Under the pieces are notes generated by a model that was given only the letters and a program-made list of their open reading frames with translations, ran no database searches and had not been told where the DNA came from. A program made the translations under genes and the position numbers. A stretch of 64,000 bases of DNA from Euglena gracilis (taxonomy: Eukaryota), in contig CP154954.1 in assembly GCA_039621445.1 (NCBI GenBank), positions 36,069,703 through 36,133,702 of the forward strand. The letters run 5' to 3'. Below, in pieces: positions 458 through 55,596 of the stretch (position 1 is the first letter of the stretch; every line of letters starts with the position of its first letter).

Positions 458-937
458 TGTGAGTCAGGGGTGCTGAGTGCCCAAAACAACATAACCTAAC
501 CCAACCCAACCTGATGACTCTGCAGTTAGGATTAGGAAAATCTTATTAGGAATTATTAGCAGCTGACCCCATTTGTCTGCACAGGGCTCTGTCTTGTGTT
601 TGTCTGTTTCAAGTTCAAGAATTGAATTATATTGGTGGCAATTATCATTCTTACCTGGACATTTCGTGGTTCATTACATTGGTGCTGGATTTGGAATTGC
701 TGAATTGCTTGTATTGTGCTATTGGTCTTGTGGATTTTTTTATCAAAAAGGAAAGGTGTGAGCCAACCAACCCACCTGTTTTCATCAAAAAAACCCACCA
801 AAAACAAAGAAAATGCAATTTTTGAAACAGGCCGCGAGGGGAATTGAAAACACCCTGGGCAGGGCTAAAGATCCTACGCAACGGGGTGCCGGCCCCGAGG
901 AACTGGAAACCCCAGGGCGGGCACCACGAATACAACA
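458..937 (+). repeat. Element 1 5' LTR (480 bp)
   Basis: TGTGAGTCAG...TACAACA; matches 20005-20484 with one substitution noticed (gggCtaaag vs gggTtaaag). Confidence 0.95.
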
Positions 938-5264: not shown

Positions 5265-5583
5265 AGGGGCTGCGGCCTGAGGGTAGGGGACGAGAGGGGC
5301 GACTCTCTGCAGACACAACCGAAACAACCAAACAAAACAAGGGAACCAGGTCCAGAGCCGCAGCGGTCATACACACTGGGTAAGGGAGGTAAGAAAAAAC
5401 CCCAAAAGAAAAACATCCTGACAAAAAAACGACTCCACAGCCCAGAACCGAAAAGGGAACAGGTCAGCTGCAGGTTCGGCAGAGCAGCTTCACGGTGGGT
5501 GTCTGAAAACTACCACGTGAAGGAAGAAAAAATGACAGAAATTATCTCACACTTCGGGGTCCAGCCCCAGCTGGATGCCTTTG
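5265..5583 (+). CDS. pol: Element 1 pol, N-terminal part up to motif I of the Dam-like MTase (interrupted by element 2)
   Basis: Stop-free and in the gag frame after TGA 5262-5264: RGCGLRVGDE...WVSENYHVKEEKMTEIISHFGVQPQLDAF. It joins 12636 in frame once element 2 and one TSD copy are removed. Confidence 0.8.
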
Positions 5584-5774
5584 TGGACGTCTCAGAATAT
5601 TCTTTTGTTTTTATTGAAATCCTCGGATTCCCAATTTTTCTTGATATCCCAATTGTCCCCAAAGACGTAACACAATCAATGTTGAGACATAACCAGAGCC
5701 AGCAGTCTGCACAGGAGGAAAGGTTCGAATTAGGAATACAAAGTTCGGTTCAGGCGGTTAGTAAATAGTCCGCA
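5584..5774 (-). repeat. Element 2 3' LTR (191 bp)
   Basis: Direct repeat of 12440-12630; preceded on the minus strand by G-rich GGCATGGGGGGCGTG (imperfect PPT). Confidence 0.93.
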
Positions 5775-6060
5775 CACGCCCCCCATGCCGGAGGACGCGG
5801 CGCCACAGGCACAGGACGAAACGGCATCACACCACAAACAAAATGGCTTTACTATGGTTCAAGCACGAATGAATGGTGTTCAACACGAATTGTCCACAAA
5901 AAAGGTTCAGAACGACAAATGTCAACACAAAGGAAGGTAAAAGAGGTTACTTCCGACGTTCACCGTGGTCCCTTCACTTCGTGGTTGGCTTGCCATTCAA
6001 AAGTAACACAAACCTGGGCGAAACTCCTCGCATCAATGGCAGGTTTGTGACTGAAAGCCT

Positions 6061-9000
6061 TCAAACGTTAGACAACAATCCACCCATGGCGAGGCGGGTT
6101 GGTGTCTCCTGACCCGAAAAACCATCCAAAAGGCCCCCTGGGGGGCTTGACTTTCCTCCCGCGTGACTGAAAGCACGATCAAAACATTTGGGGGGAGGCC
6201 AGGCTGTCTCTTGAGATGCCAACCCCCATTCGCATTCTGAAACGTCGCAAAACATTCTGAGCGCCTGGCGTAGGATCGATTGTAAATTGTGATCCACACA
6301 ATAATTCTTGAAAACCTCATTCATTCTGCCTCCTGGTTGCACAAAGGAAGCCACAGGCTCCCATGTACTGCTGCTTGCCGGAAAATTCTCCCACCAAACC
6401 AAAAATTTCCATCCCCCTTGGTACTTGTGCTTCAAAATCTTGTAAACATTGTAAAAACCCAATTGTGCTTGTTCTTCTTCTGACATCTGAAGGCGGTGGT
6501 CCCCTCCCTGGTCTGGCATGGGGGTGTCACCCTCCACTGGGTCTCCCACAACCACATCACCGGTCAAAAGGTCTGGGTCTTCTTCCAAAAGGCTTTCTTC
6601 ATGCAAAGCAACCTCCCACCTTTTGCACAAACCCAAAGAGACATCAATGACCCCTCCCAAAGATGGACTGCTTGCAATTTGCACTGAATTGAACCTCGAT
6701 TTGAGAACCCGAAAAGGTCCTTGCCAGGGGGGGGAAAGCTTGGGCCATGATTTGTTTGGCCATCTTTTGTTGTGCACCAAAACATAGTCATCTTCTTCAA
6801 TTTTTGCTGGTACCCTCCCTTTGTTGGCACTCTCAAAATCCTTTTTCCTCAATTCTTTCAATCTCTGGGAAGCTCTTTCTTGAATTTCCATCTGGGTCAA
6901 AAGCCAAGAATGGGTTTCTGGATTTGTCACCGGTTCTGGGGGTAATTCCAACCTCCAAGCTGGTCTGCCCAAAAACATTTCATGGGGTGACAACATTGTT
7001 GTGGGGGAAATCTGCGAATTCATCAAAAATGTGCAATACGGGATCAGCTGCACCCAATTTTTGTCCTTGGAAGACAGACTCAATGCTCGCATATTCTGCA
7101 AGAACATTTTATTGACATTTTCAACCAAACCGTTTGATCGGGGGTTCCGGGGCAGAGAAAACGATAATTTCACGTCGAGAGCTTTCAGGGCTGTCTGGTA
7201 AAAACCACTGGGCTGTCTGAATCGCACGTCGTTGTCAGACCTCACAACAGACGGTTTTCCAAAAACAGAAATCCACCGGTCCAAAATAAGCCTCAAAACA
7301 CCTTCTCCGGTTACCGTTTTCTGTGTGGGGATGAATTGGCAAAAATGGGACAAATTGTCGACCAAAGTCAGCACATAGTCAAAACCATTGTAGGGGTCCA
7401 TTTGCACAAAATCCAAACACAAAACTTCATTGCTCACTGTTGGAATCGGTAAAGAACCCACCTTTCCACGGTCACTGGGGCGGTTTTGTTTTGAAAGGGT
7501 GCAAATTTCACATGTCATCACAATGGCCCTGCAAATTTCCAACATGTCTTTCTTGGAAACCTTGGACTGAAAATGGCTCAAAAAGAACAACAAAGTCCTT
7601 TCAGCACCAACATGGTTGCTTGCCTTGTGACATTCATCCAAACAAACCTTCAACAAATGAGATGGAACAACCAATTTTCCTTCACAATACATGGCCTTGG
7701 CAGATCTGAACCAAAACTCATTGTCAATGAAACAGGGTTTTGAAACCTCCACTTTTTCCCAAAAATCCTTCAGCTCTGAATTCAAATAATCCTTTTCTGA
7801 CACTTGCACTCTGTGGGACAAACTGAAAATCTTCTGCAAAAACAGGTCAAGCTGCACATCCATTTTCTGAAAAGCGTTCCTTGCTTCTTCCTCAAAATGA
7901 ATTTCAAATTTGTTCTCAAAATCAGCACGAGACAAAAAATCACACAATTCATTTTTGCAACCTGCCACATGAACGATATTCAGTTTGAACTGGTGCAAAA
8001 ACACATACATCCTTCTCAATCTTTTGTTGAGGGGGGGTTCACCCTTCAGGAAAGAGGTGGCTGCCTCATTGTCTGTCATCCACACAATTGGCAGATTTTG
8101 CAAAATCCTTGTTTGTGAAGCAATGGTCAGCACACCACTCAAAATTTCCTTTTCCCAGGTAGTGTATTTTTTTCTTGCCTCACTCCATTTCCAGTTGTAG
8201 TGGCCCAGGGGCACCAACCTCATTTCACTGGGGTAGTTGTTTTTCAGGGTCCCATCCACCTTCACACCACTTGTTCGAAAATTCTCAGGAATTTGTGTTT
8301 GTTGGAGGGTTTGCCACTGAAACAATGCTGAACCACCTCCCAAATCCGAACTGTCAGTCACCAAAACAATCTCTCCTGAACTCCTGGGGGTACCCAAAAC
8401 ATCAAGAGAAGACAATTTCCTTTTCAATGCATTCAAACAACTCTCCTCCTTTTCAGTCCACCTCCATTTCACATTCTTTTTCAGCAGATCTGTGAGCGGG
8501 GCTGAGTCAAAAGTAAAACCTTTCACGTGTCTGCGGTAGAAATTCATGGCTCCCAAAATTCGCCTCAAATCCCTTTGATTCTGAACTCGAAAACTCAGAA
8601 TTGGTTCAATGTTTCTTTTGTTTGCCTGCCACATTCCCCATCCCAACGAGAAACCCAAATAGTCAATGGACTGATTCAGAAAGGAACATTTGCTCAATTT
8701 TATTCTCACTTGGTTCTTTCTGCAAACTTCAAACCACTTTTCCAAAAGATACAAATGATCCTCCTCAGAGTTTGCACCAACCCCTGTGTCATCAAAAAAA
8801 GAAGCCAGGTGTCCATCCTTCAAAATCTCTCTCACCCTCAAATCCGTTTTGCATTGGGAGGTTAGAATTTCCATCAGCTCCTGAAAAATACCCGGTGCAT
8901 TACTTAGGCCAAACATCATCCTTTTGGGACGAAAACACCTCCCAGAAGGAATGCAAAATGCAGACAAATTTGCTGCTCTTTTTGTGATTGGGATTTGCCA

Positions 9001-9390
9001 ATACCCACTCCTCATGTCCAGGGTACTTTTCCAGCGACATTTGGCCAAACTTTCAATCAAAACCTCCATGCTTGGCAAATAACCTGCATGTGCCTTGCTT
9101 CTGGCATTCAATTTTCCATAATGGATGACCATCCTTCTGGTACTTGACCCTTTTTTGTCCACCAAAAATGTGGGGCTGCACACCTGGGGGATTTCACCAA
9201 CTGGGAATTGCTCAATCAACCCTGACTTTAGCAATTCTTCACACTGAAGGTCAATTTCTTTTTCATCCTCCTGGGGCATGGGCCAACACTTTTGCCTTAG
9301 GGGTTTACCTTCCCATTCAGGCTTTAGCTCAATGTCCATCAAAACTGGCAGTGGGGACTCGAGAAATTGTGGGCAATGGTCCAAAAACAT
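6061..9390 (-). CDS. pol: Element 2 pol: reverse transcriptase, RNase H, integrase, chromodomain
   Basis: RT: CSPTFLVDKK, LDMRSGYWQ, MMFGLSNAP, FFDD. RNase H: VTDSS...EKE...TDNEA...CDFLSR. IN: H..H..CEIC, LDF, RSDND, NGLVE, WQGPF. Chromodomain: YNVYKILKHK...FLVWWENF...STWEP. Confidence 0.93.
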   Translation of the reverse strand: MFLDHCPQFLESPLPVLMDIELKPEWEGKPLRQKCWPMPQEDEKEIDLQCEELLKSGLIEQFPVGEIPQVCSPTFLVDKKGSSTRRMVIHYGKLNARSKAHAGYLPSMEVLIESLAKCRWKSTLDMRSGYWQIPITKRAANLSAFCIPSGRCFRPKRMMFGLSNAPGIFQELMEILTSQCKTDLRVREILKDGHLASFFDDTGVGANSEEDHLYLLEKWFEVCRKNQVRIKLSKCSFLNQSIDYLGFSLGWGMWQANKRNIEPILSFRVQNQRDLRRILGAMNFYRRHVKGFTFDSAPLTDLLKKNVKWRWTEKEESCLNALKRKLSSLDVLGTPRSSGEIVLVTDSSDLGGGSALFQWQTLQQTQIPENFRTSGVKVDGTLKNNYPSEMRLVPLGHYNWKWSEARKKYTTWEKEILSGVLTIASQTRILQNLPIVWMTDNEAATSFLKGEPPLNKRLRRMYVFLHQFKLNIVHVAGCKNELCDFLSRADFENKFEIHFEEEARNAFQKMDVQLDLFLQKIFSLSHRVQVSEKDYLNSELKDFWEKVEVSKPCFIDNEFWFRSAKAMYCEGKLVVPSHLLKVCLDECHKASNHVGAERTLLFFLSHFQSKVSKKDMLEICRAIVMTCEICTLSKQNRPSDRGKVGSLPIPTVSNEVLCLDFVQMDPYNGFDYVLTLVDNLSHFCQFIPTQKTVTGEGVLRLILDRWISVFGKPSVVRSDNDVRFRQPSGFYQTALKALDVKLSFSLPRNPRSNGLVENVNKMFLQNMRALSLSSKDKNWVQLIPYCTFLMNSQISPTTMLSPHEMFLGRPAWRLELPPEPVTNPETHSWLLTQMEIQERASQRLKELRKKDFESANKGRVPAKIEEDDYVLVHNKRWPNKSWPKLSPPWQGPFRVLKSRFNSVQIASSPSLGGVIDVSLGLCKRWEVALHEESLLEEDPDLLTGDVVVGDPVEGDTPMPDQGGDHRLQMSEEEQAQLGFYNVYKILKHKYQGGWKFLVWWENFPASSSTWEPVASFVQPGGRMNEVFKNYCVDHNLQSILRQALRMFCDVSECEWGLASQETAWPPPKCFDRAFSHAGGKSSPPGGLLDGFSGQETPTRLAMGGLLSNV

Positions 9391-10975
9391 CAGAAAATTT
9401 CACCAAAAGCTCATACAACCTGGGGTGGTCTCTGAATTTCTCAACTTCTTTTTCAAATTCTCCACTCAGATTCTCAGTAAACAATTTGCTGCTTTTTTCA
9501 TCAGCCTTTTTCTGGGCCTCCAAAGTCCAAATCTTTTCATGCAAAACTTGGGAAATGCTTTTGAGTTCATCCATCTTGATTGTTGCCTTGGGAGTTTTCA
9601 CAGGTTTTGCAAACTGAACATCTTCCACAGGCTGGGCCAGCTGGAAAAACATCACCTCCACATCTTTTCTCACCTCCTGAAAAAGACTCAGCTCACTTTC
9701 AATGTCCTTGGTCAACTCAGCCAAAAAATTGATGTTTTCATGCTCATTCATTGGTTCAAACACCACCACATTGTCCAACCATTCTTTCACTTTTTCATCT
9801 GATTCCTTGGGGGGAACATTCTCCAAAGGAAAACTTGGACTTTCAAAAACTTGCTTGTCTGCAGGTGGGCTGGCAGGCTGGGTTGCCTGCTGCAGGGGGG
9901 GAACATCAGGAACATCTGGGATATCCACTTGAATTCCATCATCCACTGTGGGATACTTCCTGATCTCACCTCTCAGTTCATCCAAACTCCAATTCCTTGA
10001 AACTTTTCTGAGCCAACTGACAATTTTGGGGTCCAAAAGCTCAAAATCCACTTTGAATTGCACAGTGTCCACCACACTCACAAAAGTGTTCCACAGGGGG
10101 GAGGGCAGCACCTTTTTGCACCTGTCACCCACAAACAAGGGAACCCCACTTGAAATTTTCACCCTGGCCACAGTCACCCTTTCCAGCAGGGGGGACCAGT
10201 ACTGGTCCACCCAGTCTGGGTGCACCAGGACCATTTTTGTTTCTTCAATGCACAACTTTGTCACCACTTTGCTTAGTTGGCTGAAGGGGGGGTTTGCCCA
10301 CAGAAACTTGGAAGCACCAATGTCACACAACAACCTTTCCCATGAATACCTGTAGGCTGAATTCCCTTTTGTCATGTACAAAGACTGGGTGTGGTTCAGG
10401 TGGTTTGCAAAAAGATCAATGCAAATCTGACCCTCAGAAATCTTCAATTCATCCAAAGCTTTTGACTTCACTGGCTTCACCAAAGTGTAGCTTTCTGTCT
10501 TGAAAAGTCTGAAAATTCTTTTGATGGTGTGGTCCCCATCATGGCTCTGAAGTAAAAACTCCTCACCATCAATGATGATTCTGGGGGGTCTGGTCAGCAA
10601 CCCACCAAAAAATTCACTTTCAGTAAAGTCAGTCCCCAAAACTGCCTCGAAGGCATTTGTTTCAACCACAACCGCTTTAAGTCTTAGTGTTTTTCGCCCC
10701 AACTCCAAACTCACCTCACACACTCCTTCGGAAAAGATGTACTCACCGTTGCCGATCTGCAGGGGTACCGCAGCACTTCGCTGAATTTTATTCTCTGGAA
10801 CACATTTCTTAGAAACTGCAGTTATGGTGGCCCCAGTGTCCAAAATAGCTTGAATTTCCTTTCCATAAACCTTCACTGGCAAAAGATAAGTTTTACACAC
10901 CATCTGGAGCAACTGCAAAGCATCAGCTTTTCTCTTTTTGGGGTTCTCACCCGGGGGGGTAACCTGGGTTTGCAC
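9329..10975 (-). CDS. Element 2 aspartic protease plus Dam-like N6-adenine DNA methyltransferase
   Basis: ILDTGA and AVLGTDF (protease); TESYTL...IDLFANHLN...LWANPPFSQLSKVVTKL...LVHPDW...W (amino-MTase; NPPF at 10283-10294). Joined to its neighbours by single-base frameshifts. Confidence 0.85.
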   Translation of the reverse strand: MQTQVTPPGENPKKRKADALQLLQMVCKTYLLPVKVYGKEIQAILDTGATITAVSKKCVPENKIQRSAAVPLQIGNGEYIFSEGVCEVSLELGRKTLRLKAVVVETNAFEAVLGTDFTESEFFGGLLTRPPRIIIDGEEFLLQSHDGDHTIKRIFRLFKTESYTLVKPVKSKALDELKISEGQICIDLFANHLNHTQSLYMTKGNSAYRYSWERLLCDIGASKFLWANPPFSQLSKVVTKLCIEETKMVLVHPDWVDQYWSPLLERVTVARVKISSGVPLFVGDRCKKVLPSPLWNTFVSVVDTVQFKVDFELLDPKIVSWLRKVSRNWSLDELRGEIRKYPTVDDGIQVDIPDVPDVPPLQQATQPASPPADKQVFESPSFPLENVPPKESDEKVKEWLDNVVVFEPMNEHENINFLAELTKDIESELSLFQEVRKDVEVMFFQLAQPVEDVQFAKPVKTPKATIKMDELKSISQVLHEKIWTLEAQKKADEKSSKLFTENLSGEFEKEVEKFRDHPRLYELLVKFSDVFGPLPTISRVPTASFDGH

Positions 10976-11996
10976 TCCCTGGGGTTGAACCGAAGGGGTC
11001 CCTTTCCTGCCCCCTTCTGGGCTTGCTGCCTTCTTTTTTCAAACTTTTCTTTTGACCAACATCTGTCTTCATAATGCCCTTTTTGTGACAAAATCGACAG
11101 AAAATTGTGGCTCCAAATCGTGGGGCTGGGGTGTCATCAACTTTTCTTTCACCCTTGCCTTTGCCTTTTCCTTTGCCTTTTCCTTTTCCACCAGATTTTC
11201 CACCTTTTCCAGATTCTGGGACATTTTCACCAACTTTTTCAGATTGATCAGGGGGTCTTTCAATCAATGGTCTGAGATTTTCTTTTTTCAGCAAATTCCT
11301 CTCCAACCAATCTTCAGAACTTTTCTCCAAAATTGTTTTTCTCAAATCTGTGAATGTCTCAGAACGATGTTTGTAAAATCTGTCTGCCCTGATGTCTGCA
11401 TACATTCTGGGGTGTAATTTCCTCAGCAAAACCAAAAACTTTTCCTGTTCACTCATGGCCTGGGGGCTCAACCTGGCCATCAAATTGTCCAAGTCAATGA
11501 AAAGTTTTTTGATGTCTTGGGGTTCAGGGTTCTGGGAAAGTGCTGGCAATTTGTCAATGGCAGACCTCAAAGTCATGTCATTTTCCAGTGTTGGGAACAA
11601 ATTTGCAATTTCCAACAGCACTTTTTCAAAATCATCATTCTCATCCATCACTTTTTCAACCAGTTTTTTCACCTTGGGGGTGCAACATTCCAACAGCCAA
11701 TCCTTTTTCTGGACATTTCCAAATGCAACTGCACCAGTTAACCTCAACCATCTGCCAAAATCTTTCAAAAACTCTGGCCAATTTGTGCCATCAAACTCAG
11801 GCAATTTCACAGGGGGTAATCTTGAACTTTGGGTTGAACTTTGGCTGGGGTTGCTGGAATTTGGTTCCACAATTTGCTTCAGAAATGTTTCAACCTGGGT
11901 GATGGGGTTCACAGGGGTAAACACAGACTGACTGCTGCTGGCTGATTTGATTTCCAATTCTTGCAACCTTCTTTCCAAATCTTCAATGGAGGACAT
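10873..11996 (-). CDS. gag: Element 2 Gag with CCHC zinc knuckle (split by a frameshift)
   Basis: KLPEFDGTNWPEF capsid-like start; GKGKGKG tract; CRFCHKKG|HYEDRC forms a CX2CX4HX4C knuckle when one base is restored in the A/G run near 11080. Confidence 0.85.
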
Positions 11997-12423
11997 TTCT
12001 GCAGATCACTTTCAAAAAACTCAACCACTGGCTCTGAAAACTGGGAGAAACAGAAACACTGGCCAACCCAAAAAACAAACAAAAACTGAAGAAACCAGAA
12101 CAGAAAACCAACCACTGGGTTCAGGACCAGGTCAGCAAGATGATGAAGATCTTGCCTCAACCAGGATCTTGTTCTGGACAGCAAGGTGAACAGCACCACT
12201 TACAAACTTCCTCAACCAGGTAACCAATACAACAACTGTTGACAAACTCTCCACTGTGAACTTGTTCACCACAGCCTCAATGTCAACTTCCTGTTGAAGG
12301 TGTTGTTCTGTACCAGCAACTCGGTTAACCTTGCCTTCAGGAACACCAACTTCTGGAACTTCAATAACCAGTGAAACAATGTTGAATCTCCTCGAAGACG
12401 TCTTGGACGATTGGAACAACAAA

Positions 12424-12435
12424 CCTCTGCGACCA
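12424..12435 (-). promoter_or_regulatory. Element 2 primer-binding site TGGTCGCAGAGG
   Basis: Lies 4 nt after the 5' LTR on the minus strand; identical to the element 1 PBS. Confidence 0.75.
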
Positions 12436-12439
12436 ACTT

Positions 12440-12630
12440 TGGACGTCTCAGAATATTCTTTTGTTTTTATTGAAATCCTCGGATTCCCAATTTTTCTTGA
12501 TATCCCAATTGTCCCCAAAGACGTAACACAATCAATGTTGAGACATAACCAGAGCCAGCAGTCTGCACAGGAGGAAAGGTTCGAATTAGGAATACAAAGT
12601 TCGGTTCAGGCGGTTAGTAAATAGTCCGCA
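12440..12630 (-). repeat. Element 2 5' LTR (191 bp)
   Basis: Direct repeat of 5584-5774. Confidence 0.93.
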
Positions 12631-12635
12631 CTTTG

Positions 12636-14473
12636 CAACGGAAAAAAACAAAAGATTCCCGCAGTGGTGGGGATCTGGCAGCCCTGAGGGCACAGACGAA
12701 TTTGAAAGAGACTGGCACGGAAAACTGCTGTGGATGAACCCACCATTCAGCAAAATTTCACAGGTGGTGAGAAAAATTCAAACAGATGAGGCCCATGCAC
12801 TCCTCATGGTACCCAGATGGGTTCACAGAAAATGGTACGGAGAAATCAAAAAACTGGCAGTGATGTCAATGTTCATCCCAGCGGGAACAAAACTGTTTGG
12901 ACAGGGTGACAAGAACTGCAGGAATACACCGTGGCATGTGGAAGTGTTTTTGGTATGCGGACACAAAACACGGTGCAAGTACCTACCAGGTTTCCACAAA
13001 CACTTCACCCCCCTACATCCGACATCCAAGGTGAGGTTCGGCACAGCCCACGAGTACCCGCCAGTGGAGGACGAGGTGGAGGGTGGTGAACAAAAAACCG
13101 ACTTGGGGACAGAAAAACCACAGAAACACATCAGAAAACTGCAGGAGGCAGCCACAGCGACACCAGAACGGGCCACAGTAGAAAAACCAAAACCAAAAAT
13201 GCTGGACCTGTTCTGTGGAACAAAATCGGTCAGCAAGGTGTATGAAAAAATGGGCTTCGAGGTGGTGACGGTGGACTCAGACCCCAGGTGGAAAGCGGAT
13301 TACCAGGTGGACGTACTGGACTGGGACTTCAGAAAACATTTCAAACCTGGCGAATTCCACACGGTGGTTTGTGGGGTTCCCTGCACAGAATTCAGCATTG
13401 CCCTGACGACAAGACCCAGAAACCTGGAAAAAGGAGACAGCCTTGCAAAGAAAGCCCTGGAAATTGTGAAATTTCTGCAACCGCAGAAATGGTGGTTGGA
13501 AAACCCAAGGTACGGATACCTGGGAAAACGAGATTACATGAAACCGTACCCGTACATTGATGTGGATTACTGTCAATACACAGACTGGGGTTACAAAAAA
13601 CCAACACGAATCTGGGGCAGCCCTGACATCCTGCAGGTACCAGCCAAACGGTGTGACGGGAAAACGTGCAAAAACCTGGACCCGAACGGTGGAGGTCACC
13701 TGGTGAAACTCAGCAACAAACACAACATCCCAGCCTTCAAAAAATTCAGGATCCCAGAACAACTGATTCAGGACCTGGCGGGGTTCCACGAACGGCTACG
13801 GCAAACCAGCCAAGCCCAGGCCGCGCAGCAACAACCGCTGCAGCAGCCCAGCCCTGCCCGGACTGCGCGACAAAACATGCTCTCACAGCCCAGCCCAGAA
13901 CTGACAGGTCAACAGCCAAACCCAGATTCAACTGACAAAACAGAACCAGACCAAAACATTCGGCTTCCAAAACGCCTGTGTGAACCGGTGTCCAAACTCC
14001 TGCTGGGGCAGGTCATCAGCAGAAAGAAGGCTAAACAACTCCTCATCGAAGTCCGTGCTGTGTTGCCGGACGGCAAAAAAATGTTCCTACAGGCCCTGAT
14101 CGACACGGGAGCACAGGCAAACCTGGTGAAAAAGAACCTGATTCCCCAACAAAATTTCAGACGTTCACAAAAACCCTTGGCACTGATCACAGCGGACGGA
14201 ACAAGGATGGAAGGAGGACTACACGAAGTTACACTGGAACTGCAGTTTTCATCACGGGTGCACAACACGGACAGAACAGGGGAATGGTCCACCATTGGAA
14301 CATTCCATGACGCCGACATCCAGGTTGATGCCATCCTCGGGTATCCGTGGATGGAACAACACCAACTGGGGGTTTTCCCACACCTACAATCATTGGCCCT
14401 CATAGATGAACCACTGCGGCTGCTGTCCAGTTGGCCCCAACTGAAGGAACAAAACACAGGGAACGGAAAATAA
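12636..14473 (+). CDS. Element 1 pol continued: rest of Dam-like adenine MTase, C5-cytosine DNA methyltransferase, aspartic protease
   Basis: ATEKNKRFPQWW...LLWMNPPFSKI...LMVPRW (NPPF 12737-12748). C5-MTase ~13199-13790: MLDLFCG (motif I), VDSD, DVLDWD, GVPCTEFS (catalytic PC, 13379-13384), WLENP (13499-13507), DYCQY..KKPTRIW. Protease LIDTGA (DTG 14102-14110) and AILGYPW. Confidence 0.9.
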
Positions 14474-16809
14474 ACCAACTTCAGAAAAAAATTTCGGAAG
14501 TGCGGGCCATGAATTTGCAGATTCCTGCTGAAGCGGGCCAGGACGATGAAAAACTGTCCGAAGACGAAACAACGCTGGAAGCACTGGCCAAACAACTTCA
14601 GAAATCGGCAAAGAAATCCGACAGGGTTCACGGTGTGGTAGTGATGCCAGAAGGACAAGAAACACAAGGCGAAAGGGTGGCTGAACTGGTGAAAAAATTG
14701 CGGCAGGACTACGAAGGAGCGGTCTTGCGAGACAAAATCTACCCAGACCCCCCAGAACGCGGACGACTGGGTTATGGGAAAATCGACCTGAAACCTGGAA
14801 CAGTGGCGAAAAAGCAAAGACCCGTCCACATGACAGGAGAACGCCGACAGGCACTCATCGACATGATGGACGAATGGGTTAGGGACCTGAAAGTGGAAGA
14901 CGGAAGGAGTGACTGGTCCAGCCCCACGTTCGTGGTGGCCAAAAAAGGTGGAAAATGGAGACGGGTGGTGGATTTAAGAGCATTGAACGAGGCAACAATC
15001 ACAGACGCCCATCCCCTCCCTAGGATAGAAGACATCTTAGCTAAACAAGGACAACGGGCCATATACAGTGTACTGGACCTCAAAGATGCCTTCCACCAGG
15101 TGCCACTGAGAACAGAGTCCAGACCCTACACCTGCTGCAGCACACCTAAGGGAACAAAACAGTGGAGAGTGGTGGTCATGGGAATGAAAAACGGGGTACC
15201 GATTTTCCAGAGGGTGATCGAGTACAGCCTGGAGGAGGTACAGGACATTGCAAACCCCTACGTGGACGACATCATCGTAGGAACCGTTTGGCAGGGGTCA
15301 GAAGACAAAACCCTCGAACAACACGACAAGGACATCAGAAGGGTGATGGAGGCACTGAAAAAACAGCAGCACGTGGCAGACATCAAGAAATGCAAATTTT
15401 TCGTGAAAGAGGTGGAATTCTGTGGACACGTGCTGGGTGGTGGACAACGGAAACCCGCACCTGGGAAACTGATGGCCTTGGAAAAATGGGAGGAACCGAA
15501 AACGGTCACAGCCCTACGGGCATTCCTGGGATTCACAAACTATTATGCCTCATACATCCCAGGGTATGCGGAATTGGCTGCAGACCTGATGGAAAAAAAA
15601 AAAAAAAAAAAAGGACAGGGGAAGAAAGGAAGCCTGACACCTGTGTTTTTCGGTGAAAGGGAAAGAACAGCCTTCCAGACCATCAAAGAAAAACTGCTCG
15701 GAAGCCTGAAACTGCAAACGGTGAACCCAGACAAACCGTTCATACTCAGGGTGGATGCAAGTGGCAGAGCCGTAGGTGCGGCTCTGGAACAATTTGCGGA
15801 GGACACTGCAGAAAAACCAGACCCAACAACAGCCATGACCAAAAAAACAGTACCCGTAGCTTTCTGTTCACGAAAACTGACACCTGGGCAGGTTCGCTCG
15901 TGGTCTCCTAGGGAGAAGGAGACCTACGCAGTGATCCTGGCCCTGCAAAAATGGGCTTCCTGGATAGGAATGCAACCGGTACTGGTGTTGACGGACCACA
16001 AGTCCATTGAGGCATGGGCAACGGAGGCGCTGGACACCCCCAGTGGACCAGCTGGACGTAGGGCTAGGTGGCACGAACTGCTTTCGCGGTTCGACATAAC
16101 CGTTGCATACGTACCTGGCAAAGACAACACGGTCGCCGATGCCTTGAGTAGGTGGGCCTACCCCGCCTCACAGGCATTCGCCGACGTGAGTATCCACGGG
16201 AGTGAGGAGGACGACCGACTCATGAAAGAAATCATCAAACAGGAGGAAAAGGAACAGAAAACTTGTATGGTGATCAACGTGGCAGACCTGACACAGGCAC
16301 AAAAACAACTTCAAGAACCCGTCACTGTGGCCGTCACAACAAGGGGGGGAGCCAAAACGGGTGAAGATTCGCCCACAGTGCCTGGTTCAACGGAAAATGA
16401 TGACACCCCTCAAAAAATTTCAAAAACGCCTCAAAAACCTGCAAAAACGACAAAGAAATGGGTTGTGAAGGAAACGATTGTGGTGGAACCAAGCAAAAAA
16501 CTGGCAGGGGCAACCCCAAGGGAGACCACGGATGAGGCAGGAAACCTGATCCGACCAGACCAACCAAAAAACAAAACCCCAGAAAATTCAAACACGGCCG
16601 AGGGACCATCCACTGAGGAAGACCCACCAAGGCGAAGACCCCTGGAAGAGGACCCTGTGGAACCCCTAACAACAACAGACTCAACAAAACAACAGGACGC
16701 GCAAGGTGCGTCATCCTCAACGGGGACACCCGTTGGACCTCCATCAAGGGGAGTGCACGCCCCGGAGCTTCAACAGGGGGAACTGAAAGGGGTGATGGAC
16801 AGGGAATAA
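14431..16809 (+). CDS. pol: Element 1 pol: reverse transcriptase and RNase H
   Basis: WSSPTFVVAKK, WRRVVDLRALN, LDLKDAFHQ, MGMKNG, YVDD (15259-15270), RVDASGRAVGAALEQ, EKETYA, TDHKS, VADALSR. Shifted -1 from the upstream ORF at a C-run near 14435. Confidence 0.93.
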   Translation: MAPTEGTKHRERKINQLQKKISEVRAMNLQIPAEAGQDDEKLSEDETTLEALAKQLQKSAKKSDRVHGVVVMPEGQETQGERVAELVKKLRQDYEGAVLRDKIYPDPPERGRLGYGKIDLKPGTVAKKQRPVHMTGERRQALIDMMDEWVRDLKVEDGRSDWSSPTFVVAKKGGKWRRVVDLRALNEATITDAHPLPRIEDILAKQGQRAIYSVLDLKDAFHQVPLRTESRPYTCCSTPKGTKQWRVVVMGMKNGVPIFQRVIEYSLEEVQDIANPYVDDIIVGTVWQGSEDKTLEQHDKDIRRVMEALKKQQHVADIKKCKFFVKEVEFCGHVLGGGQRKPAPGKLMALEKWEEPKTVTALRAFLGFTNYYASYIPGYAELAADLMEKKKKKKGQGKKGSLTPVFFGERERTAFQTIKEKLLGSLKLQTVNPDKPFILRVDASGRAVGAALEQFAEDTAEKPDPTTAMTKKTVPVAFCSRKLTPGQVRSWSPREKETYAVILALQKWASWIGMQPVLVLTDHKSIEAWATEALDTPSGPAGRRARWHELLSRFDITVAYVPGKDNTVADALSRWAYPASQAFADVSIHGSEEDDRLMKEIIKQEEKEQKTCMVINVADLTQAQKQLQEPVTVAVTTRGGAKTGEDSPTVPGSTENDDTPQKISKTPQKPAKTTKKWVVKETIVVEPSKKLAGATPRETTDEAGNLIRPDQPKNKTPENSNTAEGPSTEEDPPRRRPLEEDPVEPLTTTDSTKQQDAQGASSSTGTPVGPPSRGVHAPELQQGELKGVMDRE

Positions 16810-18238
16810 AAGAACGAGTACGAAAGTTGCCCAAGGTGGGGACCTGTGCTCAAGAACCTGAAGGAAACGGGGTTCAAAAAATGGCCTGACGGGTACCGAA
16901 TCGACAACGGCAGGCTCTACAAAAACGGTCTCCTGTGTGTACCAAGTGGGTTGACTGGAAACGTAATTCGGGAACATCACGAAACAGCCGGGCACCCAGG
17001 GTCAGCCCGACTGTGGGACCAGATGGGAAGGTGGTTTGCGTTTGCGGACCATCAGGATGCAAAAAAACTGACAGGCAAAATGATGACCATGTGTGAAACC
17101 TGCCAAGCCACAGAACCGACACCGATTCCTGCACACCTGATGGACAGTGTTGCTATCGACTTGTTCTCTCTACCTGAAACCACCTTTGAAGGGAAAAAAT
17201 ACGACACGTTGGCGTTATGTGTGGACAGGCTGAGTGGGTGGATGGTTGCAACCCCCCACCTGGCCAAGGGACTCACAGCAGAAAAGGTTGGAAAGGAAAT
17301 GTACAAACAGTGGGGAATTTTTGGGATACCCTCGCTTGTGAGCTCCGACCGGGGCTCCCACTTCACAGCCGGTTGGTGGAAAACACTGTGTGCTGCCCAC
17401 GGGGTCCGTGTGGCGTACGGGCAGGCATACCACCACCAAGCCAACGGACGGGCTGAGGTAGCGGGTCAACAAGTCCTCCGAAAACTGGCAAAACTGGCTG
17501 CTGAAAAAGGGGTACCCCGGGTTGAGCTCCTACCGAACGCCTTGAGGGCCCTACACGACGTCCCAGGTGAAACGGGATTGTCACCGTACGAAATTGTGTT
17601 TGGCAGGCACAGACCGTTGGCGGGATTGCCACACCAACCACAAAAGGAAGCGGAAGGGGCCACAACGTTCTTGGAAAGGATGAAAGAACAAGACCAGTGG
17701 GTGAGCCTGGTCCTGAACGAAAAACAGCGTGAACGGGCTGAAACTGAACCGAAAACGCAGAGAACCACCTGCCTTGGAAATCGGCTCCAAAGTCTGGTAT
17801 CAACCCGAAAGACAACCCGGCAGCGACAAACTCGAACCGAAGTGGAAAGGACCTGCAGTGGTGTTGGAACGGGTAGGACAACACTCCTACGTGGTTGAAC
17901 TACGACTTGGAAACCGACAACCTGCCCACCGTTCACAACTCAAACCCCACGTGGAGGACCTCTACAACACAACTCCTGTCCCCCTCTACTTTTGGTCGGG
18001 CAAAGCACAGGAGTTGGAGGTCGGACCTGACGAGTGGGAGGTTGAAAAAGTGCTGAACCACCGCAGAAAAGACGGAAAACTTCAATTTTTGATTCAGTGG
18101 AAAAACTGGGACCCATCTGATACTCAGTGGGAACCCCTGAACCACTTCTTCCTCCGAACAAACAAGGATGTGGTCCAATATTGCAAGAAACGGGACCTGG
18201 CTGTGGATGTGAGAGAGTTGCTCGATGGGATGGAGTGA
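16810..18238 (+). CDS. Element 1 integrase plus chromodomain (after an in-frame TAA; frameshift near 17740)
   Basis: HHETAGHPG...CETC, AIDLF, SSDRGSHF, NGRAE, LSPYEIVFG, PKWKGP; chromodomain WEVEKVLNHRRKDGKLQFLIQWKNWDPSDTQWEP. Confidence 0.9.
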
Positions 18239-19993: not shown

Positions 19994-20004
19994 GGGAAGG
20001 GGAG
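19994..20004 (+). promoter_or_regulatory. Element 1 polypurine tract GGGAAGGGGAG
   Basis: 11 purines abutting the 3' LTR. Confidence 0.9.
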
Positions 20005-20484
20005 TGTGAGTCAGGGGTGCTGAGTGCCCAAAACAACATAACCTAACCCAACCCAACCTGATGACTCTGCAGTTAGGATTAGGAAAATCTTATTAGGAAT
20101 TATTAGCAGCTGACCCCATTTGTCTGCACAGGGCTCTGTCTTGTGTTTGTCTGTTTCAAGTTCAAGAATTGAATTATATTGGTGGCAATTATCATTCTTA
20201 CCTGGACATTTCGTGGTTCATTACATTGGTGCTGGATTTGGAATTGCTGAATTGCTTGTATTGTGCTATTGGTCTTGTGGATTTTTTTATCAAAAAGGAA
20301 AGGTGTGAGCCAACCAACCCACCTGTTTTCATCAAAAAAACCCACCAAAAACAAAGAAAATGCAATTTTTGAAACAGGCCGCGAGGGGAATTGAAAACAC
20401 CCTGGGCAGGGTTAAAGATCCTACGCAACGGGGTGCCGGCCCCGAGGAACTGGAAACCCCAGGGCGGGCACCACGAATACAACA
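20005..20484 (+). repeat. Element 1 3' LTR (480 bp)
   Basis: Direct repeat of 458-937. Confidence 0.95.
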
Positions 20485-40134: not shown

Positions 40135-40168
40135 AAGTCATGTGGGACAAAAAAATTTTCGGATGCAT

Positions 40169-40401: not shown

Positions 40402-40484
40402 TGGCAGATTTTGAGGGCAAAGAGCAGATTTTGTCAACAAACATAATAAACAAAATCCCCATACACTTCATTCTCACCCCCCCA

Positions 40485-55566: not shown

Positions 55567-55596
55567 TTGGTGGAAACCATCCTCCAGGTCGAAAAT

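What the first reader, a model, noticed from the sequence alone, without database searches (positions are those of the whole stretch)
5265..18238. Gypsy retrotransposon whose Pol carries two DNA methyltransferases (Dam-like amino-MTase and C5-cytosine MTase) plus a chromodomain
Seen: with element 2 removed, pol reads [SENY..LDAFATEKN..WMNPPF..VPRW]-[LDLFCG..DVLDWD..GVPCTEFS..WLENP..DYCQY..KPTRIW..RIP]-PR-RT-RH-IN-chromodomain, with both catalytic motifs (NPPF; PC and ENP) intact and both MTases placed before the protease. Established: DIRS elements carry a phage Dam-like domain, and C5-DNMT-bearing retrotransposons are reported from dinoflagellates and charophyte algae. Inference: I know of no LTR element combining both writer types with a chromatin reader. 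It could methylate its own cDNA in the particle (6mA or 4mC, plus 5mC) to mimic host marks or evade surveillance, then target heterochromatic satellite.
Basis: partly seen in the sequence, partly recalled or inferred. Interest (0 to 1): 0.92.

Follow-up and report, generated by a model that had tools for sequence, protein, structure and literature searches.

The report
Retrotransposon carrying two DNA methyltransferase domains
This is a jumping gene of the Ty3/gypsy type whose enzyme protein also carries an adenine-methylase-like domain, a cytosine-methylase domain and a chromatin-reading domain; the combination is real, but a 2026 preprint has already described such elements.

Summary
Window 458-20484 is a Ty3/gypsy chromovirus-type LTR retrotransposon. 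Its 480-bp LTRs differ at 1 of 480 bases, it has a 4-bp target duplication, and it sits in a 213-bp satellite. Its pol reads Dam-like MTase, C5-cytosine MTase, PR, RT, RNase H, IN, chromodomain.

Both methylase calls are supported by Pfam, by intact motifs (NPPF; PC, ENP) and by confident models. The C5 model matches DNMT3/DNMT1/M.HhaI. The Dam-like model matches phage Dam models and PCIF1.

A second LTR element (5584-12630, minus strand) splits the Dam-like core. Contigs in four public runs, and a 96%-identical protein, show the uninterrupted form.

This copy is defective. Besides the nested insertion it has two frame breaks (near 14450 and 17744) and an in-frame TAA (16807-16809).

The novelty claim fails. 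A May 2026 bioRxiv preprint names Dam + DNMT + chromodomain LTR elements "EpiLTRs" (Euglena gracilis, Cymbomonas tetramitiformis). The host here is unnamed, so identity with the Euglena family cannot be tested.

New here:
- The C5 domain is a compact (~200 aa) virus/phage-type methylase.
- It occupies several different positions in related elements.
- gag and pol share a frame across a single stop.

The mechanism (self-marking of new cDNA) remains inference.

The parts
454..457 (+). Target-site duplication CGGG (left copy) in the 213-bp satellite
   Evidence: CGGG directly before the 5' LTR and again at 20485-20488. The satellite unit reads ...GTTCCGGGGGACATT... across the empty site (consensus).
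458..937 (+). 5' LTR (480 bp, TG...CA)
   Evidence: matches 20005-20484 with 1 mismatch in 480 (position 865, C versus T).
938..954 (+). Primer-binding-site-like sequence starting TGG, directly after the LTR
   Evidence: 72 sequence. Position and TGG start only; the tRNA was not identified.
762..5264 (+). gag-like ORF (stop to stop 1500 aa; coiled-coil and Q/P-rich, internal 78-nt and 105-nt tandem repeats), ending in TGA 5262-5264. The ORF is open from inside the LTR; the true start was not determined.
   Evidence: Pfam gives only weak coiled-coil-type matches and no gag family.
5265..5583 (+). Start of pol in the gag frame. 5500-5583 encodes the first 28 residues of the Dam-like domain (VSENY...QLDAF).
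   Evidence: Aligns with the N-termini of P0003-P0006.
5584..12630 (-). Nested second LTR retrotransposon (PR, Dam-like, RT, RNase H, IN, chromodomain; no C5 MTase). It interrupts the Dam-like core of element 1. Target duplication CTTTG at 5579-5583 and 12631-12635.
   Evidence: LTRs 191/191 identical; domains; NPPF present. table 5: contigs skipping it in 4 of 4 runs.
12636..13060 (+). Rest of the Dam-like N6-adenine-MTase-type domain (ATEKN...WMNPPFS...VPRW...VRFG)
   Evidence: Pfam PF05869; TIGR01712, E 1.5e-5; phrog_111, 7.6e-9. Model of the uninterrupted P0003 part: pLDDT 89.1. Fold matches.
13187..13789 (+). Compact C5-cytosine DNA methyltransferase domain (motifs LDLFCG, GVPCTEFS, WLENPR, KPTRIW, FRIP)
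   Evidence: PF00145, 23.9 bits; phrog_757, 1e-13. Model pLDDT 90.6. Foldseek PDB top hits DNMT1/DNMT3, E about 1e-8. VIA Z 14.7 to DNMT3B, 13.3 to M.HhaI.
14048..14389 (+). Aspartic protease (DTG)
   Evidence: weak Pfam matches (Peptidase_A3, gag-asp_proteas, RVP), all below cut-off. Conserved in relatives.
14410..14473 (+). Overlap of the two reading frames: frame break between PR and RT in this copy
   Evidence: table 4: other copies differ in length by one base at 14450 (X1 depth 103132 of 189547; X2 138588 of 282671; the single X15 contig and the single X20 contig).
14938..15432 (+). Reverse transcriptase
   Evidence: RVT_1, 94.8 bits; best solved relatives are Ty3 Gag-Pol and Ty3 RT (E 2e-53).
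15652..16092 (+). RNase H
   Evidence: RT_RNaseH 76 bits, RT_RNaseH_2 67 bits.
16807..16809 (+). In-frame TAA between the RNase H linker and the integrase
   Evidence: The relative P0052 is open from DNMT through chromodomain.
16939..17433 (+). Integrase zinc-binding and catalytic core
   Evidence: Integrase_H2C2 25.1 bits, rve 26.9 bits; both just under cut-off.
17717..17898 (+). Overlap of frames: second frame break, in the integrase C-terminal part
   Evidence: table 4: some other copies differ in length by two bases at 17744 (X1 7413 of 56487; X2 15185 of 75447; the single X15 contig).
18035..18139 (+). Chromodomain (aromatic positions W, W, W aligned to the CBX7 cage), preceded by an SH3-like IN C-terminal domain at 17819-17944. 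pol stop at 18236-18238.
   Evidence: (Chromo 41.5 bits; SH3_Tf2-1 22.3 bits), (CBX7, CDY, MPP8, HP1; alignment shown).
18239..19993 (+). 1.75-kb GC-rich (0.61) region between pol stop and polypurine tract. It holds only low-complexity, proline-rich frames. Not assigned.
19994..20004 (+). Polypurine tract GGGAAGGGGAG
20005..20484 (+). 3' LTR, followed by target duplication CGGG at 20485-20488

Best explanation
Window 458-20484 is a very recently inserted but defective copy of a high-copy Ty3/gypsy chromovirus-type LTR retrotransposon. It belongs to the kind lately named EpiLTR.

Shown:
- Intact relatives encode a Pol whose N-terminus carries a Dam-like (phage Dam/PCIF1-type, NPPF) amino-methyltransferase domain and a compact C5-cytosine DNA methyltransferase domain.
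- These are followed by PR, RT, RNase H, IN and a methyl-lysine-reader-type chromodomain.
- gag and pol share one frame across a single stop.

Inferred:
- Pol, and with it the two methylase domains, is made by occasional read-through of the gag stop.
- The methylase module travels in the particle.
- The C5 domain methylates the newly made cDNA or new insertion at cytosines. The Dam-like domain adds N6-methyl to adenine in the cDNA or in the RNA:DNA intermediate. The new copy then carries host-like marks.
- The chromodomain steers integration into heterochromatic satellite.

This particular copy cannot do any of this by itself. A second Dam-bearing LTR element has landed between motif I (LDAF) and motif IV (NPPF) of its Dam-like domain. 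Its pol also has two frame breaks and an in-frame stop.

My odds: identity and architecture about 0.9. C5 domain catalytically competent in intact copies about 0.6. Self-marking of cDNA as the function about 0.35. The single confidence figure given (0.55) is for the explanation as a whole.
For: LTR element:
- LTRs, target duplication, PBS and PPT.
- Ty3 is the nearest solved RT-RH.
- PR-RT-RH-IN-chromo order.

Both methylase domains are real:
- Pfam, PHROG and NCBIfam matches.
- Confident models: pLDDT 90.6 and 89.1.
- In the VIA search the first 17 rows for the C5 model are all C5 methyltransferases. DNMT3B has Z 14.7 with 191 of 201 residues aligned.
- The Dam-like model matches phage N6-adenine MTase models at E 8e-10 and PCIF1 at Z 11.8.

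They are part of pol, not a chimera:
- Dam-like remainder, C5 MTase and PR lie in one open frame, 12590-14473.
- The same order occurs in P0003 (96% identical) and in P0004, P0005, P0006 (43-47% identical) from independent contigs.
- RNA-library and DNA contigs bridge the empty site and the Dam-to-DNMT junction (tables 5 and 8).

Constraint on catalysis:
- Among 18 aligned relatives (37-99% identical to the window's domain), PC is kept in 18 of 18, ENP in 17 of 18 and KPTR in 18 of 18.
- NPP[FYW] is kept in 20 of the 23 rows that cover it.

Read-through layout: gag and pol are in one frame with a single stop both here (TGA) and in the distant relative L004 (a 1255-aa ORF, TAG, then pol in the same frame).

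Activity of the family:
- LTRs differ at 1 of 480 bases.
- 22549 and 26139 contigs of runs X1 and X2 lay on the stretch.
- Contigs of an RNA-seq metatranscriptome (X20) cover gag end, Dam, DNMT, RT, RH and IN.

Targeting: the element sits in a 213-bp satellite array.

Published support for the kind and the model: the 2026 preprint and de Mendoza et al. 2018, where retrotransposon DNMTs methylate CG de novo (abstract).
Against: - No methylation data were examined, so every functional step is inference.
- The preprint reports that representative eukaryotic DAM domains added no 6mA in dam-deficient E. coli.
- Iyer, Zhang and Aravind judged the related DIRS1 domains inactive.
- Two other elements in this window have the Dam-like motif degenerated to HPPL and HPAL. 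The domain can therefore persist without the catalytic Asn.
- No RNA structure stands out after the gag TGA (z 0.54), and no Rfam read-through element matched.
- CpG depletion is not specific to the DNMT-bearing element. CpG observed/expected is 0.55-0.66 here but 0.30 in the nested element, which has no DNMT.
- X20 is an RNA library, but DNA carry-over cannot be excluded (notes).
- The share of copies that lack the two-base length difference at 17744 is large. Many copies may therefore share this defect.
Confidence: 0.55

Rival explanations
1. The Dam-like domain is not a DNA 6mA writer. It is a PCIF1-type module that methylates RNA (for instance a cap-adjacent adenosine of the element's own transcript). 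Alternatively it acts without catalysis, by binding the template RNA or mimicking PCIF1. Only the C5 domain would write on DNA.
For: - The nearest solved structure is the cap-specific adenosine methyltransferase PCIF1/CAPAM. Foldseek gives E 8e-6. VIA gives Z 11.8 with 145 residues aligned, about 3 Z units above the next rows.
- The next rows are RNA adenine methylases (Erm, KsgA/DIMT1, METTL5). T4 Dam scores 8.3 and E. coli Dam 8.1.
- Iyer, Zhang and Aravind place the DIRS1 methylase domains in the PCIF1 clade and suggest RNA binding or PCIF1 mimicry (passages read).
- Heterologous expression of eukaryotic DAMs gave no 6mA in E. coli (preprint section 9).
- Degenerate HPPL and HPAL versions persist in two other elements of this window.
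Against: - By sequence the domain matches Pfam Dam, TIGR01712 and phage adenine-methylase PHROGs. PCIF1_WW was not among the Pfam families listed for P0003 at E up to 0.01.
- Predicted phage Dam models match better (E 8e-10 to 1e-6, TMq 0.63-0.69) than giant-virus PCIF1-WW proteins (E 6e-6 to 3e-4).
- No member of Pfam Dam PF05869 appeared among the solved structures matched, so the PCIF1 lead in PDB may only reflect what has been solved.
- The preprint reports more 6mA on DAM-LTR insertions than on other LTRs in three species.
Confidence: 0.25
2. The methylases act mainly on the host genome rather than on the element's own cDNA. A very abundant family expressing a C5 methylase would then contribute to, or maintain, a globally CG-methylated host genome in which methylation does not silence the element.
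For: - de Mendoza et al. 2018 raise this for Symbiodinium (abstract).
- The preprint notes that the Euglena genome is methylated at most CGs.
- The family is very abundant.
- CpG is depleted in elements 1 and 2 and in the 213-bp satellite: observed/expected 0.30-0.66.
Against: - The host is not identified and no methylome was examined.
- Two other LTR elements and the 216-bp satellite in the same window show no CpG depletion (0.93-1.34).
- Pol made by read-through and packaged in particles would be a poor genome-wide enzyme.
Confidence: 0.15
3. The two methylase domains are decaying passengers with no function for the element.
For: - This copy is broken.
- P0014 has lost the Dam motif: EPPV, with a poorly aligned domain.
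- Only 8 of the 165 retrieved proteins carry both motifs by pattern match, although most are short fragments.
Against: - Catalytic motifs are kept in relatives that are only 37-61% identical.
- The module is found in 716 cluster representatives at E up to 1e-30.
- The same Dam-DNMT-PR order is kept at 43-47% identity.
Confidence: 0.05
4. The architecture is an artefact: an assembly chimera, or a further nested insertion that only looks like part of pol.
For: The preprint warns of nested insertions and assembly artefacts in Euglena (section 7). This window does contain one nested insertion.
Against: - One open frame runs from the Dam-like remainder through the C5 MTase into PR.
- No LTR, target duplication or repeat flanks the methylase block.
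- Independent contigs from other sources give the same order.
Confidence: 0.03

Closest known systems
EpiLTRs (Fernandez-Moreno et al., bioRxiv 10.64898/2026.05.21.726589, May 2026)
   Same: An LTR retrotransposon encoding a DAM-type adenine methylase domain, a C5 DNMT domain and a chromodomain in one element. The asparagine-proline-proline catalytic triplet is kept. The setting, with several Dam-bearing LTR elements and nested insertions, is as described for Euglena.
   Different: In Cymbomonas the DNMT is appended to the 3' end of pol; here both methylases precede the protease. The text I could read does not give the Euglena domain order, and figures and supplements were not available. The preprint places the DNMT sister to DNMT4. 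Here it aligns end to end with ~200-220-aa phage methylases, and I could not test DNMT4.
DAM-LTRs and DIRS elements with a Dam-like domain (same preprint; Iyer, Zhang and Aravind 2015, PMC4738411)
   Same: The same Dam-like domain family (Pfam PF05869-type, NPP[FY]) embedded in a retroelement polyprotein.
   Different: DIRS elements use a tyrosine recombinase. Most DAM-LTRs lack a C5 methylase. In the other three Dam-bearing elements of this window the domain lies after the protease, not before it.
DNMT-bearing retrotransposons of Symbiodinium and charophytes (de Mendoza et al. 2018, PMC5890265; abstract read)
   Same: A C5 methyltransferase inside the coding region of a retrotransposon, with self-methylation of cDNA proposed.
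   Different: According to the 2026 preprint those are separate acquisitions (DNMT3-type and others) in other element classes, without a Dam-like domain. The domain here is a compact ~200-aa enzyme with phage-type relatives.
Chromoviruses (Ty3/gypsy elements with a C-terminal chromodomain)
   Same: LTRs, PR-RT-RH-IN order, chromodomain after the integrase with three aromatic cage positions, insertion in satellite.
   Different: About 420 extra residues with two methylase domains at the Pol N-terminus. A very long (about 1500 aa) gag-like ORF. gag and pol in one frame across a stop.
Compact phage and virus C5 methylases (phrog_757, phrog_363; e.g. the gene annotated 'C-5 cytosine-specific DNA methylase I' of Bacillus phage Deep Blue)
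   Same: Collinear over 97-98% of the 201-aa domain at 29-30% identity, E down to 7e-15. PHROG E 1e-13. Stand-alone ORFs of median 215 aa occur on AT-rich, gene-dense metagenome contigs at 33-44% identity.
   Different: Those are free-standing genes of DNA viruses or unassigned contigs. Here the domain is fused into a retrotransposon polyprotein.
PCIF1/CAPAM cap-specific adenosine N6-methyltransferase
   Same: Nearest solved fold to the Dam-like domain (Z 11.8). That PCIF1 shares the NPPF motif is recalled, not taken from a call.
   Different: No significant sequence match to PCIF1 (Pfam). No WW or helical domains. Phage Dam models match somewhat better.

Membership tests
Ty3/gypsy (Metaviridae) chromovirus-type LTR retrotransposon | Direct LTRs (TG...CA) with target-site duplication, and PBS and PPT next to the LTRs | tested here: met
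   480-bp LTRs identical at 479 of 480 bases, CGGG duplication, TGG... after the 5' LTR, purine tract before the 3' LTR.
Ty3/gypsy (Metaviridae) chromovirus-type LTR retrotransposon | pol order PR-RT-RNase H-IN, with an RT of Ty3 type | tested here: met
   for domain order. Ty3 Gag-Pol and Ty3 RT are the best solved matches (E 2e-53). No RT phylogeny was made.
Ty3/gypsy (Metaviridae) chromovirus-type LTR retrotransposon | Chromodomain C-terminal to the integrase | tested here: met
   (Chromo, 41.5 bits above cut-off 25.1). (CBX7, CDY, MPP8, HP1; aromatic cage positions occupied by W, W, W).
EpiLTR (DAM + DNMT + chromodomain LTR element) | DAM-type adenine methylase domain inside the element's polyprotein | tested here: met
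   Pfam Dam is 21.9 bits in the split window copy (below cut-off 28.1). It is 31.9 bits in the uninterrupted 96%-identical P0003. NPPF is present. The fold matches phage Dam models.
EpiLTR (DAM + DNMT + chromodomain LTR element) | C5 DNMT domain in the same polyprotein | tested here: met
   Pfam 23.9 bits above cut-off 22. Fold searches. Same open frame as the Dam-like remainder and PR.
EpiLTR (DAM + DNMT + chromodomain LTR element) | DNMT belongs to the clade shared by the Euglena and Cymbomonas EpiLTRs (reported sister to DNMT4); RT and DAM fall in the published lineages | not testable with these tools
   The reference sequences are in the preprint's supplements, which were closed. No DNMT4 sequence was at hand.
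C5-cytosine DNA methyltransferase | Motifs I (FxGxG-like), IV (PC), VI (ENV-like), VIII and X in canonical order on the C5-MTase fold | tested here: met
   LDLFCG, GVPCTEFS, WLENPR, KPTRIW, FRIP. Conserved in 17-18 of 18 relatives. Model pLDDT 90.6, aligned over 191 of 201 residues to DNMT3B (Z 14.7) and 188 to M.HhaI (Z 13.3).
C5-cytosine DNA methyltransferase | Catalytic activity on DNA and its sequence specificity | not testable with these tools
   No assay or methylome was available.
Phage-type Dam (Pfam PF05869 / TIGR01712) | Score above the curated cut-off of the family model | tested here: inconclusive
   PF05869 is met in P0003 (31.9 bits against 28.1) but not in the window piece (21.9). 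TIGR01712 scores 24.6 bits, far below its equivalog cut-off of 97.
Phage-type Dam (Pfam PF05869 / TIGR01712) | N6-adenine methylation of DNA | not testable with these tools
   The preprint reports a negative heterologous assay for representative eukaryotic DAMs.
Autonomous (intact) element | Uninterrupted gag and pol reading frames | tested here: not met
   Nested 7047-bp element in the Dam-like core, frame breaks near 14450 and 17744, and an in-frame TAA at 16807-16809.

The most novel reading that the evidence does not exclude
Both methylase modules of this element are of viral rather than cellular stock. The C5 domain would be a compact (~200 aa) virus/phage-type methylase, not a descendant of a eukaryotic DNMT family. 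It would behave as a mobile cassette inserted at four or more different points of related Ty3/gypsy polyproteins: before PR, between PR and RT, between RNase H and IN, and at the 3' end in Cymbomonas. With the Dam-like domain it would form at least two dual layouts (Dam-DNMT-PR here; Dam-PR-DNMT in L004). If the unnamed host is not Euglena or Cymbomonas, this is a further, independently assembled EpiLTR lineage.
Probability: 0.35. Interest if true: 0.6.

Novelty: new member of a known kind. Interest (0 to 1): 0.45.

Why it matters
Retrotransposons that carry their own writers of DNA methylation, plus a reader of histone marks, show that mobile elements can manipulate the host epigenome rather than merely suffer it. 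That idea is only just entering the literature, in one 2026 preprint.

This window gives a cleanly bounded, very young copy with LTRs, target duplication and an exact nested insertion. It shows that the family is very abundant and is found in an RNA library.

It also adds three testable points:
- The C5 module looks like a compact viral methylase.
- The module has moved between positions in pol.
- The methylases would be made by read-through of the gag stop.

The structural link of the Dam-like domain to PCIF1 sharpens an open question: does this domain write on DNA at all?

Tried and rejected
- **Whole-genome search for other copies:** no genome is held for this window. Copy counts, per-domain dN/dS and host identification could not be done.
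- **Earlier findings of the scan:** nothing by place, words or sequence.
- **Rfam:** no family at gathering score in the window. Only chance-level rows appeared around the gag stop here and in L004.
- **Structured read-through signal after the TGA:** the fold is no better than shuffles (z 0.54).
- **Sequence search of the C5 domain against PDB:** one irrelevant weak row. Profiles of A3 and A2 against PDB gave only marginal rows: motif-I matches to unrelated SAM methylases (best E 1.3e-4) and DNMT1 at E about 0.01.
- **ESM Atlas:** best score 0.85 to viral DNA_methylase clusters, below the level the tool treats as more than a lead.
- **Comparing the stop-containing IN region with P0052:** I did not pursue it.
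- **The search for related loci with alignment A1:** failed for lack of a conserved stretch; A2 worked.
- **Nature of the AT-rich contigs with stand-alone relatives:** for L038 and L052, PHROG and Pfam named only the methylases, a primase-like protein and DUF5906. Whether they are phages or viruses of eukaryotes is open.
- **Host identity:**
  - Runs are coded.
  - One distant relative, P0026, is named in NCBI as a partial Genlisea aurea protein, which says nothing about this host.
  - The Euglena genome paper (passages) reports a 2.37-Gb genome with 22-33% LTRs and about 10% tandem repeats. That is compatible with this window but not diagnostic.
- **Depth:** summed over contigs, so it gives no copy number.
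- **Supplements of the preprint:** closed. They may hold the Euglena EpiLTR sequences and domain maps that would settle whether this family is already catalogued.

Full report
**1. What is at 5265-18238 and around it**

The window begins in a 213-bp satellite (1-457), which resumes at 20485 and runs to 34379. Between these lies an LTR retrotransposon, 458-20484.
- Its 480-bp LTRs (458-937 and 20005-20484, TG...CA) differ at 1 of 480 bases (position 865, C versus T).
- CGGG is duplicated at both ends (454-457 and 20485-20488).
- A TGG-initiated primer-binding-like site follows the 5' LTR. A purine tract (GGGAAGGGGAG) precedes the 3' LTR.
- A 1500-aa stop-to-stop frame (762-5264) is rich in coiled-coil and low-complexity sequence and matches no Pfam gag family. 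It ends in TGA (5262-5264), and pol continues in the same frame.

**2. The nested element and the join**

At 5584-12630 a second LTR retrotransposon lies on the minus strand.
- Its 191-bp LTRs are identical, and CTTTG is duplicated at 5579-5583 and 12631-12635.

Two independent lines show that this is the original state:
- Protein P0003, from a public metagenome contig, is 96% identical and reads LDAFATEKN without interruption.
- Contigs that skip exactly 5579-12630 are present in all four runs laid: 3 contigs in X1, 3 in X2, 1 in X15 and 1 in X20 (table 5).

**3. The domains**

Pfam on the window's own frames:

| Domain | Bits | Cut-off / note |
|---|---|---|
| DNA_methylase | 23.9 | 22 |
| Dam | 21.9 | 28.1 (domain split here) |
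| RVT_1 | 94.8 | above cut-off |
| RT_RNaseH | 76 | above cut-off |
| Integrase_H2C2 | 25.1 | just under cut-off |
| rve | 26.9 | just under cut-off |
| SH3_Tf2-1 | 22.3 | below cut-off |
| Chromo | 41.5 | above cut-off |
| Protease families | weak | all below cut-off, around a DTG motif |

In the uninterrupted P0003, Dam reaches 31.9 bits and DNA_methylase 22.6 bits, both above cut-off. The RT-RNase H part is closest to Ty3 among solved structures (E 2e-53). The chromodomain is closest to CBX7, CDY, MPP8 and HP1, with tryptophans at the three aromatic-cage positions of the CBX7 alignment.

The order is therefore Dam-like, C5 MTase, PR, RT, RNase H, IN, chromodomain, as claimed. The Dam-like remainder, the C5 domain and PR lie in one open frame (12590-14473), so the methylases are part of pol.

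**4. Are the methylase folds real?**

*C5 domain.* A model of the window's C5 domain (201 aa, 18-row alignment) has mean pLDDT 90.6.
- Foldseek against PDB returns DNMT1, DNMT3A/B, DIM-2 and M.HaeIII at E about 1e-8.
- An independent all-against-representatives search gives DNMT3B Z 14.7 (191 residues aligned), DNMT3A 14.3, M.HhaI 13.3 and a prophage methylase 12.8. The first 17 rows are all C5 methyltransferases.

*Dam-like domain.* A model was made from the first 164 residues of P0003, because the window's copy is split. It has pLDDT 89.1.
- Against PDB its best match is the cap-specific adenosine methyltransferase PCIF1/CAPAM (Foldseek E 8e-6; Z 11.8 with 145 residues aligned).
- RNA adenine methylases follow at Z 8-9. 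T4 Dam scores 8.3 and E. coli Dam 8.1.
- Against predicted viral structures, phage proteins named DNA N-6-adenine-methyltransferase score best (E 8e-10 to 1e-6, TMq 0.63-0.69). Giant-virus PCIF1-WW proteins follow (E 6e-6 to 3e-4).

So the domain sits in the phage-Dam/PCIF1 structural neighbourhood. This agrees with Iyer, Zhang and Aravind (PMC4738411, passages read), who placed the DIRS1 methylase domains in the PCIF1 clade.

**5. Conservation**

- In the 18-row alignment of the C5 domain (relatives 37-61% identical, besides P0003), the catalytic PC is kept in 18 of 18, ENP in 17 of 18 and KPTR in 18 of 18. Motif-I glycine and other positions are invariant.
- In the 26-row Dam alignment, 20 of the 23 rows that cover the motif read NPP[FYW].
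- P0004, P0005 and P0006 (43-47% identical) keep the same Dam-DNMT-PR order. P0014 has a decayed Dam part.
- A profile search of 1.84 billion cluster representatives found 9763 proteins at E up to 1e-3, 3225 at 1e-10 and 716 at 1e-30, mostly fragments.
- By simple pattern match, 8 of the 165 retrieved proteins carry both NPP[FYW] and the PC motif.

**6. This copy is defective; the family is not**

Besides the nested insertion inside the Dam-like core, between LDAF and NPPF, this copy has three further defects:
- The frame changes between PR and RT.
- A TAA interrupts the frame at 16807-16809.
- The frame changes again in the IN C-terminal part.

Both frame breaks coincide with places where other copies differ in length (table 4):
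- By one base at 14450: about half of the summed contig depth in X1 and X2, and the single contigs of X15 and X20.
- By two bases at 17744: 13% and 20% of depth in X1 and X2, and the single X15 contig.

The breaks are therefore copy- or subfamily-specific, not programmed shifts. The relative P0052 (2513 aa) is open from the DNMT through PR, RT, RH and IN to the chromodomain.

The family is very abundant. 22549 and 26139 contigs of X1 and X2 lay on the stretch. 14 DNA runs of one coded organism hold at least half of the sampled words. Contigs of an RNA-seq metatranscriptome labelled leaf litter cover gag end, Dam-like, DNMT, RT, RH and IN at 90-99% likeness. One of them bridges the empty site (table 8). 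DNA carry-over cannot be excluded.

**7. gag-stop-pol**

gag and pol share a frame across one stop here (TGA). The same holds in the distant metagenome relative L004: a 1255-aa ORF, then TAG, then pol in the same frame. This points to stop-codon read-through as the way Pol, and with it the methylases, is made.

I found no supporting RNA structure and no Rfam match. As I recall, the purine-rich stretch after the TAG of L004 resembles the spacer of gammaretroviral read-through sites. That is a recollection, not a test.

**8. Relatives and the origin of the C5 module**

By sequence the C5 domain has no significant match among solved structures, either alone or as a profile (DNMT1 at E about 0.01). 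By contrast:
- It matches phage methylase PHROGs: phrog_757 at 1e-13 and phrog_363 at 2.8e-12.
- tblastn against 50,697 phage records finds 62 records. In 27 of them the match covers at least 80% of the domain, at about 29-30% identity and E down to 7e-15. The matching genes span about 610-660 nt, roughly 205-220 aa.

A scan of metagenome contigs gave 502 pattern matches, 377 confirmed, of which the best 80 were kept. I screened these 80 for PR, RT-RH, IN, chromodomain and Dam-like matches:
- 6 have retroelement context.
- 1 (L035) has a Dam-like match after the methylase but no RT.
- 73 show the methylase only.
- Of the 74 without retroelement context, 8 have at least 2 kb on both sides. In these loci the methylase is a stand-alone frame (median 215 aa across the 74), and the 8 long contigs are AT-rich (GC 0.31-0.44), against 0.48-0.58 for the 6 retroelement loci.
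- L038 carries two such genes in tandem. L052 has a primase-like neighbour. What these contigs are remains open.

Within retroelements the module sits at different places:

| Position | Examples |
|---|---|
| Before PR | this window, P0052, L001, L002, L006 |
| Between PR and RT | L003, L013 |
| Between RNase H and IN | P0018, P0009, P0107 |
| 3' end of pol | Cymbomonas, per the preprint |

L004 combines Dam-like, PR, DNMT and RT, a second dual layout.

**9. What is known**

A full-text search found bioRxiv 10.64898/2026.05.21.726589 (Fernandez-Moreno et al., 22 May 2026). I read the abstract and sections 6-9, 11 and 19, plus passages. Figures and supplements were not available. The preprint reports:
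- DAM domains in LTR retrotransposons of several protist and algal lineages.
- 'EpiLTRs' with DAM, DNMT and chromodomain in Cymbomonas tetramitiformis and, in a 'structurally distinct configuration', in Euglena gracilis.
- A shared DNMT clade sister to DNMT4.
- More 6mA on DAM-LTR insertions.
- A negative 6mA assay for eukaryotic DAMs in E. coli.

It states that this combination had not been described before. de Mendoza et al. 2018 (PMC5890265, abstract read) described DNMT-bearing retrotransposons in Symbiodinium and charophytes and showed de novo CG methylation by such DNMTs.

Whether this very family is among the published Euglena elements cannot be decided.
- Compatible with the Euglena description and genome paper (passages): the DNA runs that hold it are 1.0-2.3 Gb of contigs; the window is all LTR elements and satellites; and four Dam-bearing LTR elements, one nested, lie in 64 kb.
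- None of this is diagnostic.

**10. How it most likely works**

*Shown:* the anatomy, the folds, the motif conservation, the gag-stop-pol layout in two distant members, the satellite insertion site, and the youth and abundance of the family.

*Inferred:* read-through yields a Gag-Pol whose N-terminal methylase module is carried into the particle. The C5 domain methylates the cDNA or the fresh insertion. The Dam-like domain methylates adenine in cDNA or in the RNA:DNA hybrid, so that the new copy carries host-like marks. The chromodomain steers integration to heterochromatin.

*The main rival* concerns the Dam-like domain. Its nearest solved relative methylates RNA caps, heterologous DNA assays were negative, and degenerate (HPPL, HPAL) versions persist in two other elements of this window. 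It may therefore act on RNA or without catalysis.

CpG is depleted in this element (observed/expected 0.55-0.66). It is even lower in the nested element without a DNMT (0.30) and not depleted in two other elements (0.93-0.97). Composition thus gives no specific support for self-methylation.

**11. Verdict**

The kind is known since May 2026, from a preprint only, and this is at most a further member.

The additions here are leads worth testing, not established results:
- the compact virus-type C5 cassette and its positional mobility;
- the gag-stop-pol layout;
- the PCIF1 structural link;
- the exact anatomy of a young nested copy.

Noticed in passing
window 5584-12630 (minus strand): The nested element is itself a Dam-bearing chromovirus-type LTR element, but with the Dam-like domain (NPPF intact) after the protease and no C5 methylase. 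Its LTRs are identical (191 of 191), and its CpG observed/expected is only 0.30.
   Followed up: partly
window 45900-52500 (+) and 53995-62523 (-): Two further LTR-element remnants with coiled-coil gag, PR, a Dam-like domain and RT/RNase H. Their Dam-like motif is degenerate (HPAL and HPPL instead of NPPF), and they are not CpG-depleted (observed/expected 0.93-0.97). That makes four Dam-bearing LTR elements in 64 kb.
   Followed up: partly
window 34381-45706 and 63085-63841: A second satellite of about 216 bp, GC 0.62 and CpG-rich (observed/expected 1.34). It is present in both orientations. It is interrupted at 39886-40133 and 40485-40720 by arrays of an 11-bp unit (CCCCTTACCCA and its permutation).
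   Followed up: no
window 762-5264: The gag-like frame is unusually long (1500 aa stop to stop). It has a long coiled-coil part, 78-nt and 105-nt internal tandem repeats, G/K/N/Q-rich tails, no Pfam gag family and no zinc knuckle that I noticed. The frame is open from inside the 5' LTR.
   Followed up: no
window 18239-19993: 1.75 kb of GC-rich (0.61) sequence between the pol stop and the polypurine tract. It holds overlapping proline-rich frames on both strands and matches no family. It could be a long 3' UTR or an unrecognised extra gene.
   Followed up: no
L004 3700-3800: In this metagenome relative (Dam-like, PR, DNMT, RT), gag and pol are in one frame across a single TAG. The TAG is followed by a purine-rich stretch (GGGAGGTCAGGGACG...).
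   Followed up: partly
L038 7384-8642; L035 785-1661: L038 is an AT-rich, gene-dense contig with two compact C5-type methylase genes in tandem. In L035 a compact C5-type methylase is followed directly by a weak Dam-like match (E 6e-7), with no retroelement domains on the 2.4-kb contig.
   Followed up: partly
protein P0026: A 719-aa partial protein with both the Dam and DNA_methylase domains is deposited in NCBI as a hypothetical protein of the flowering plant Genlisea aurea, on a 2.5-kb contig. The preprint reports no DAM-LTRs in streptophytes, so this record may come from another organism in the sample.
   Followed up: no
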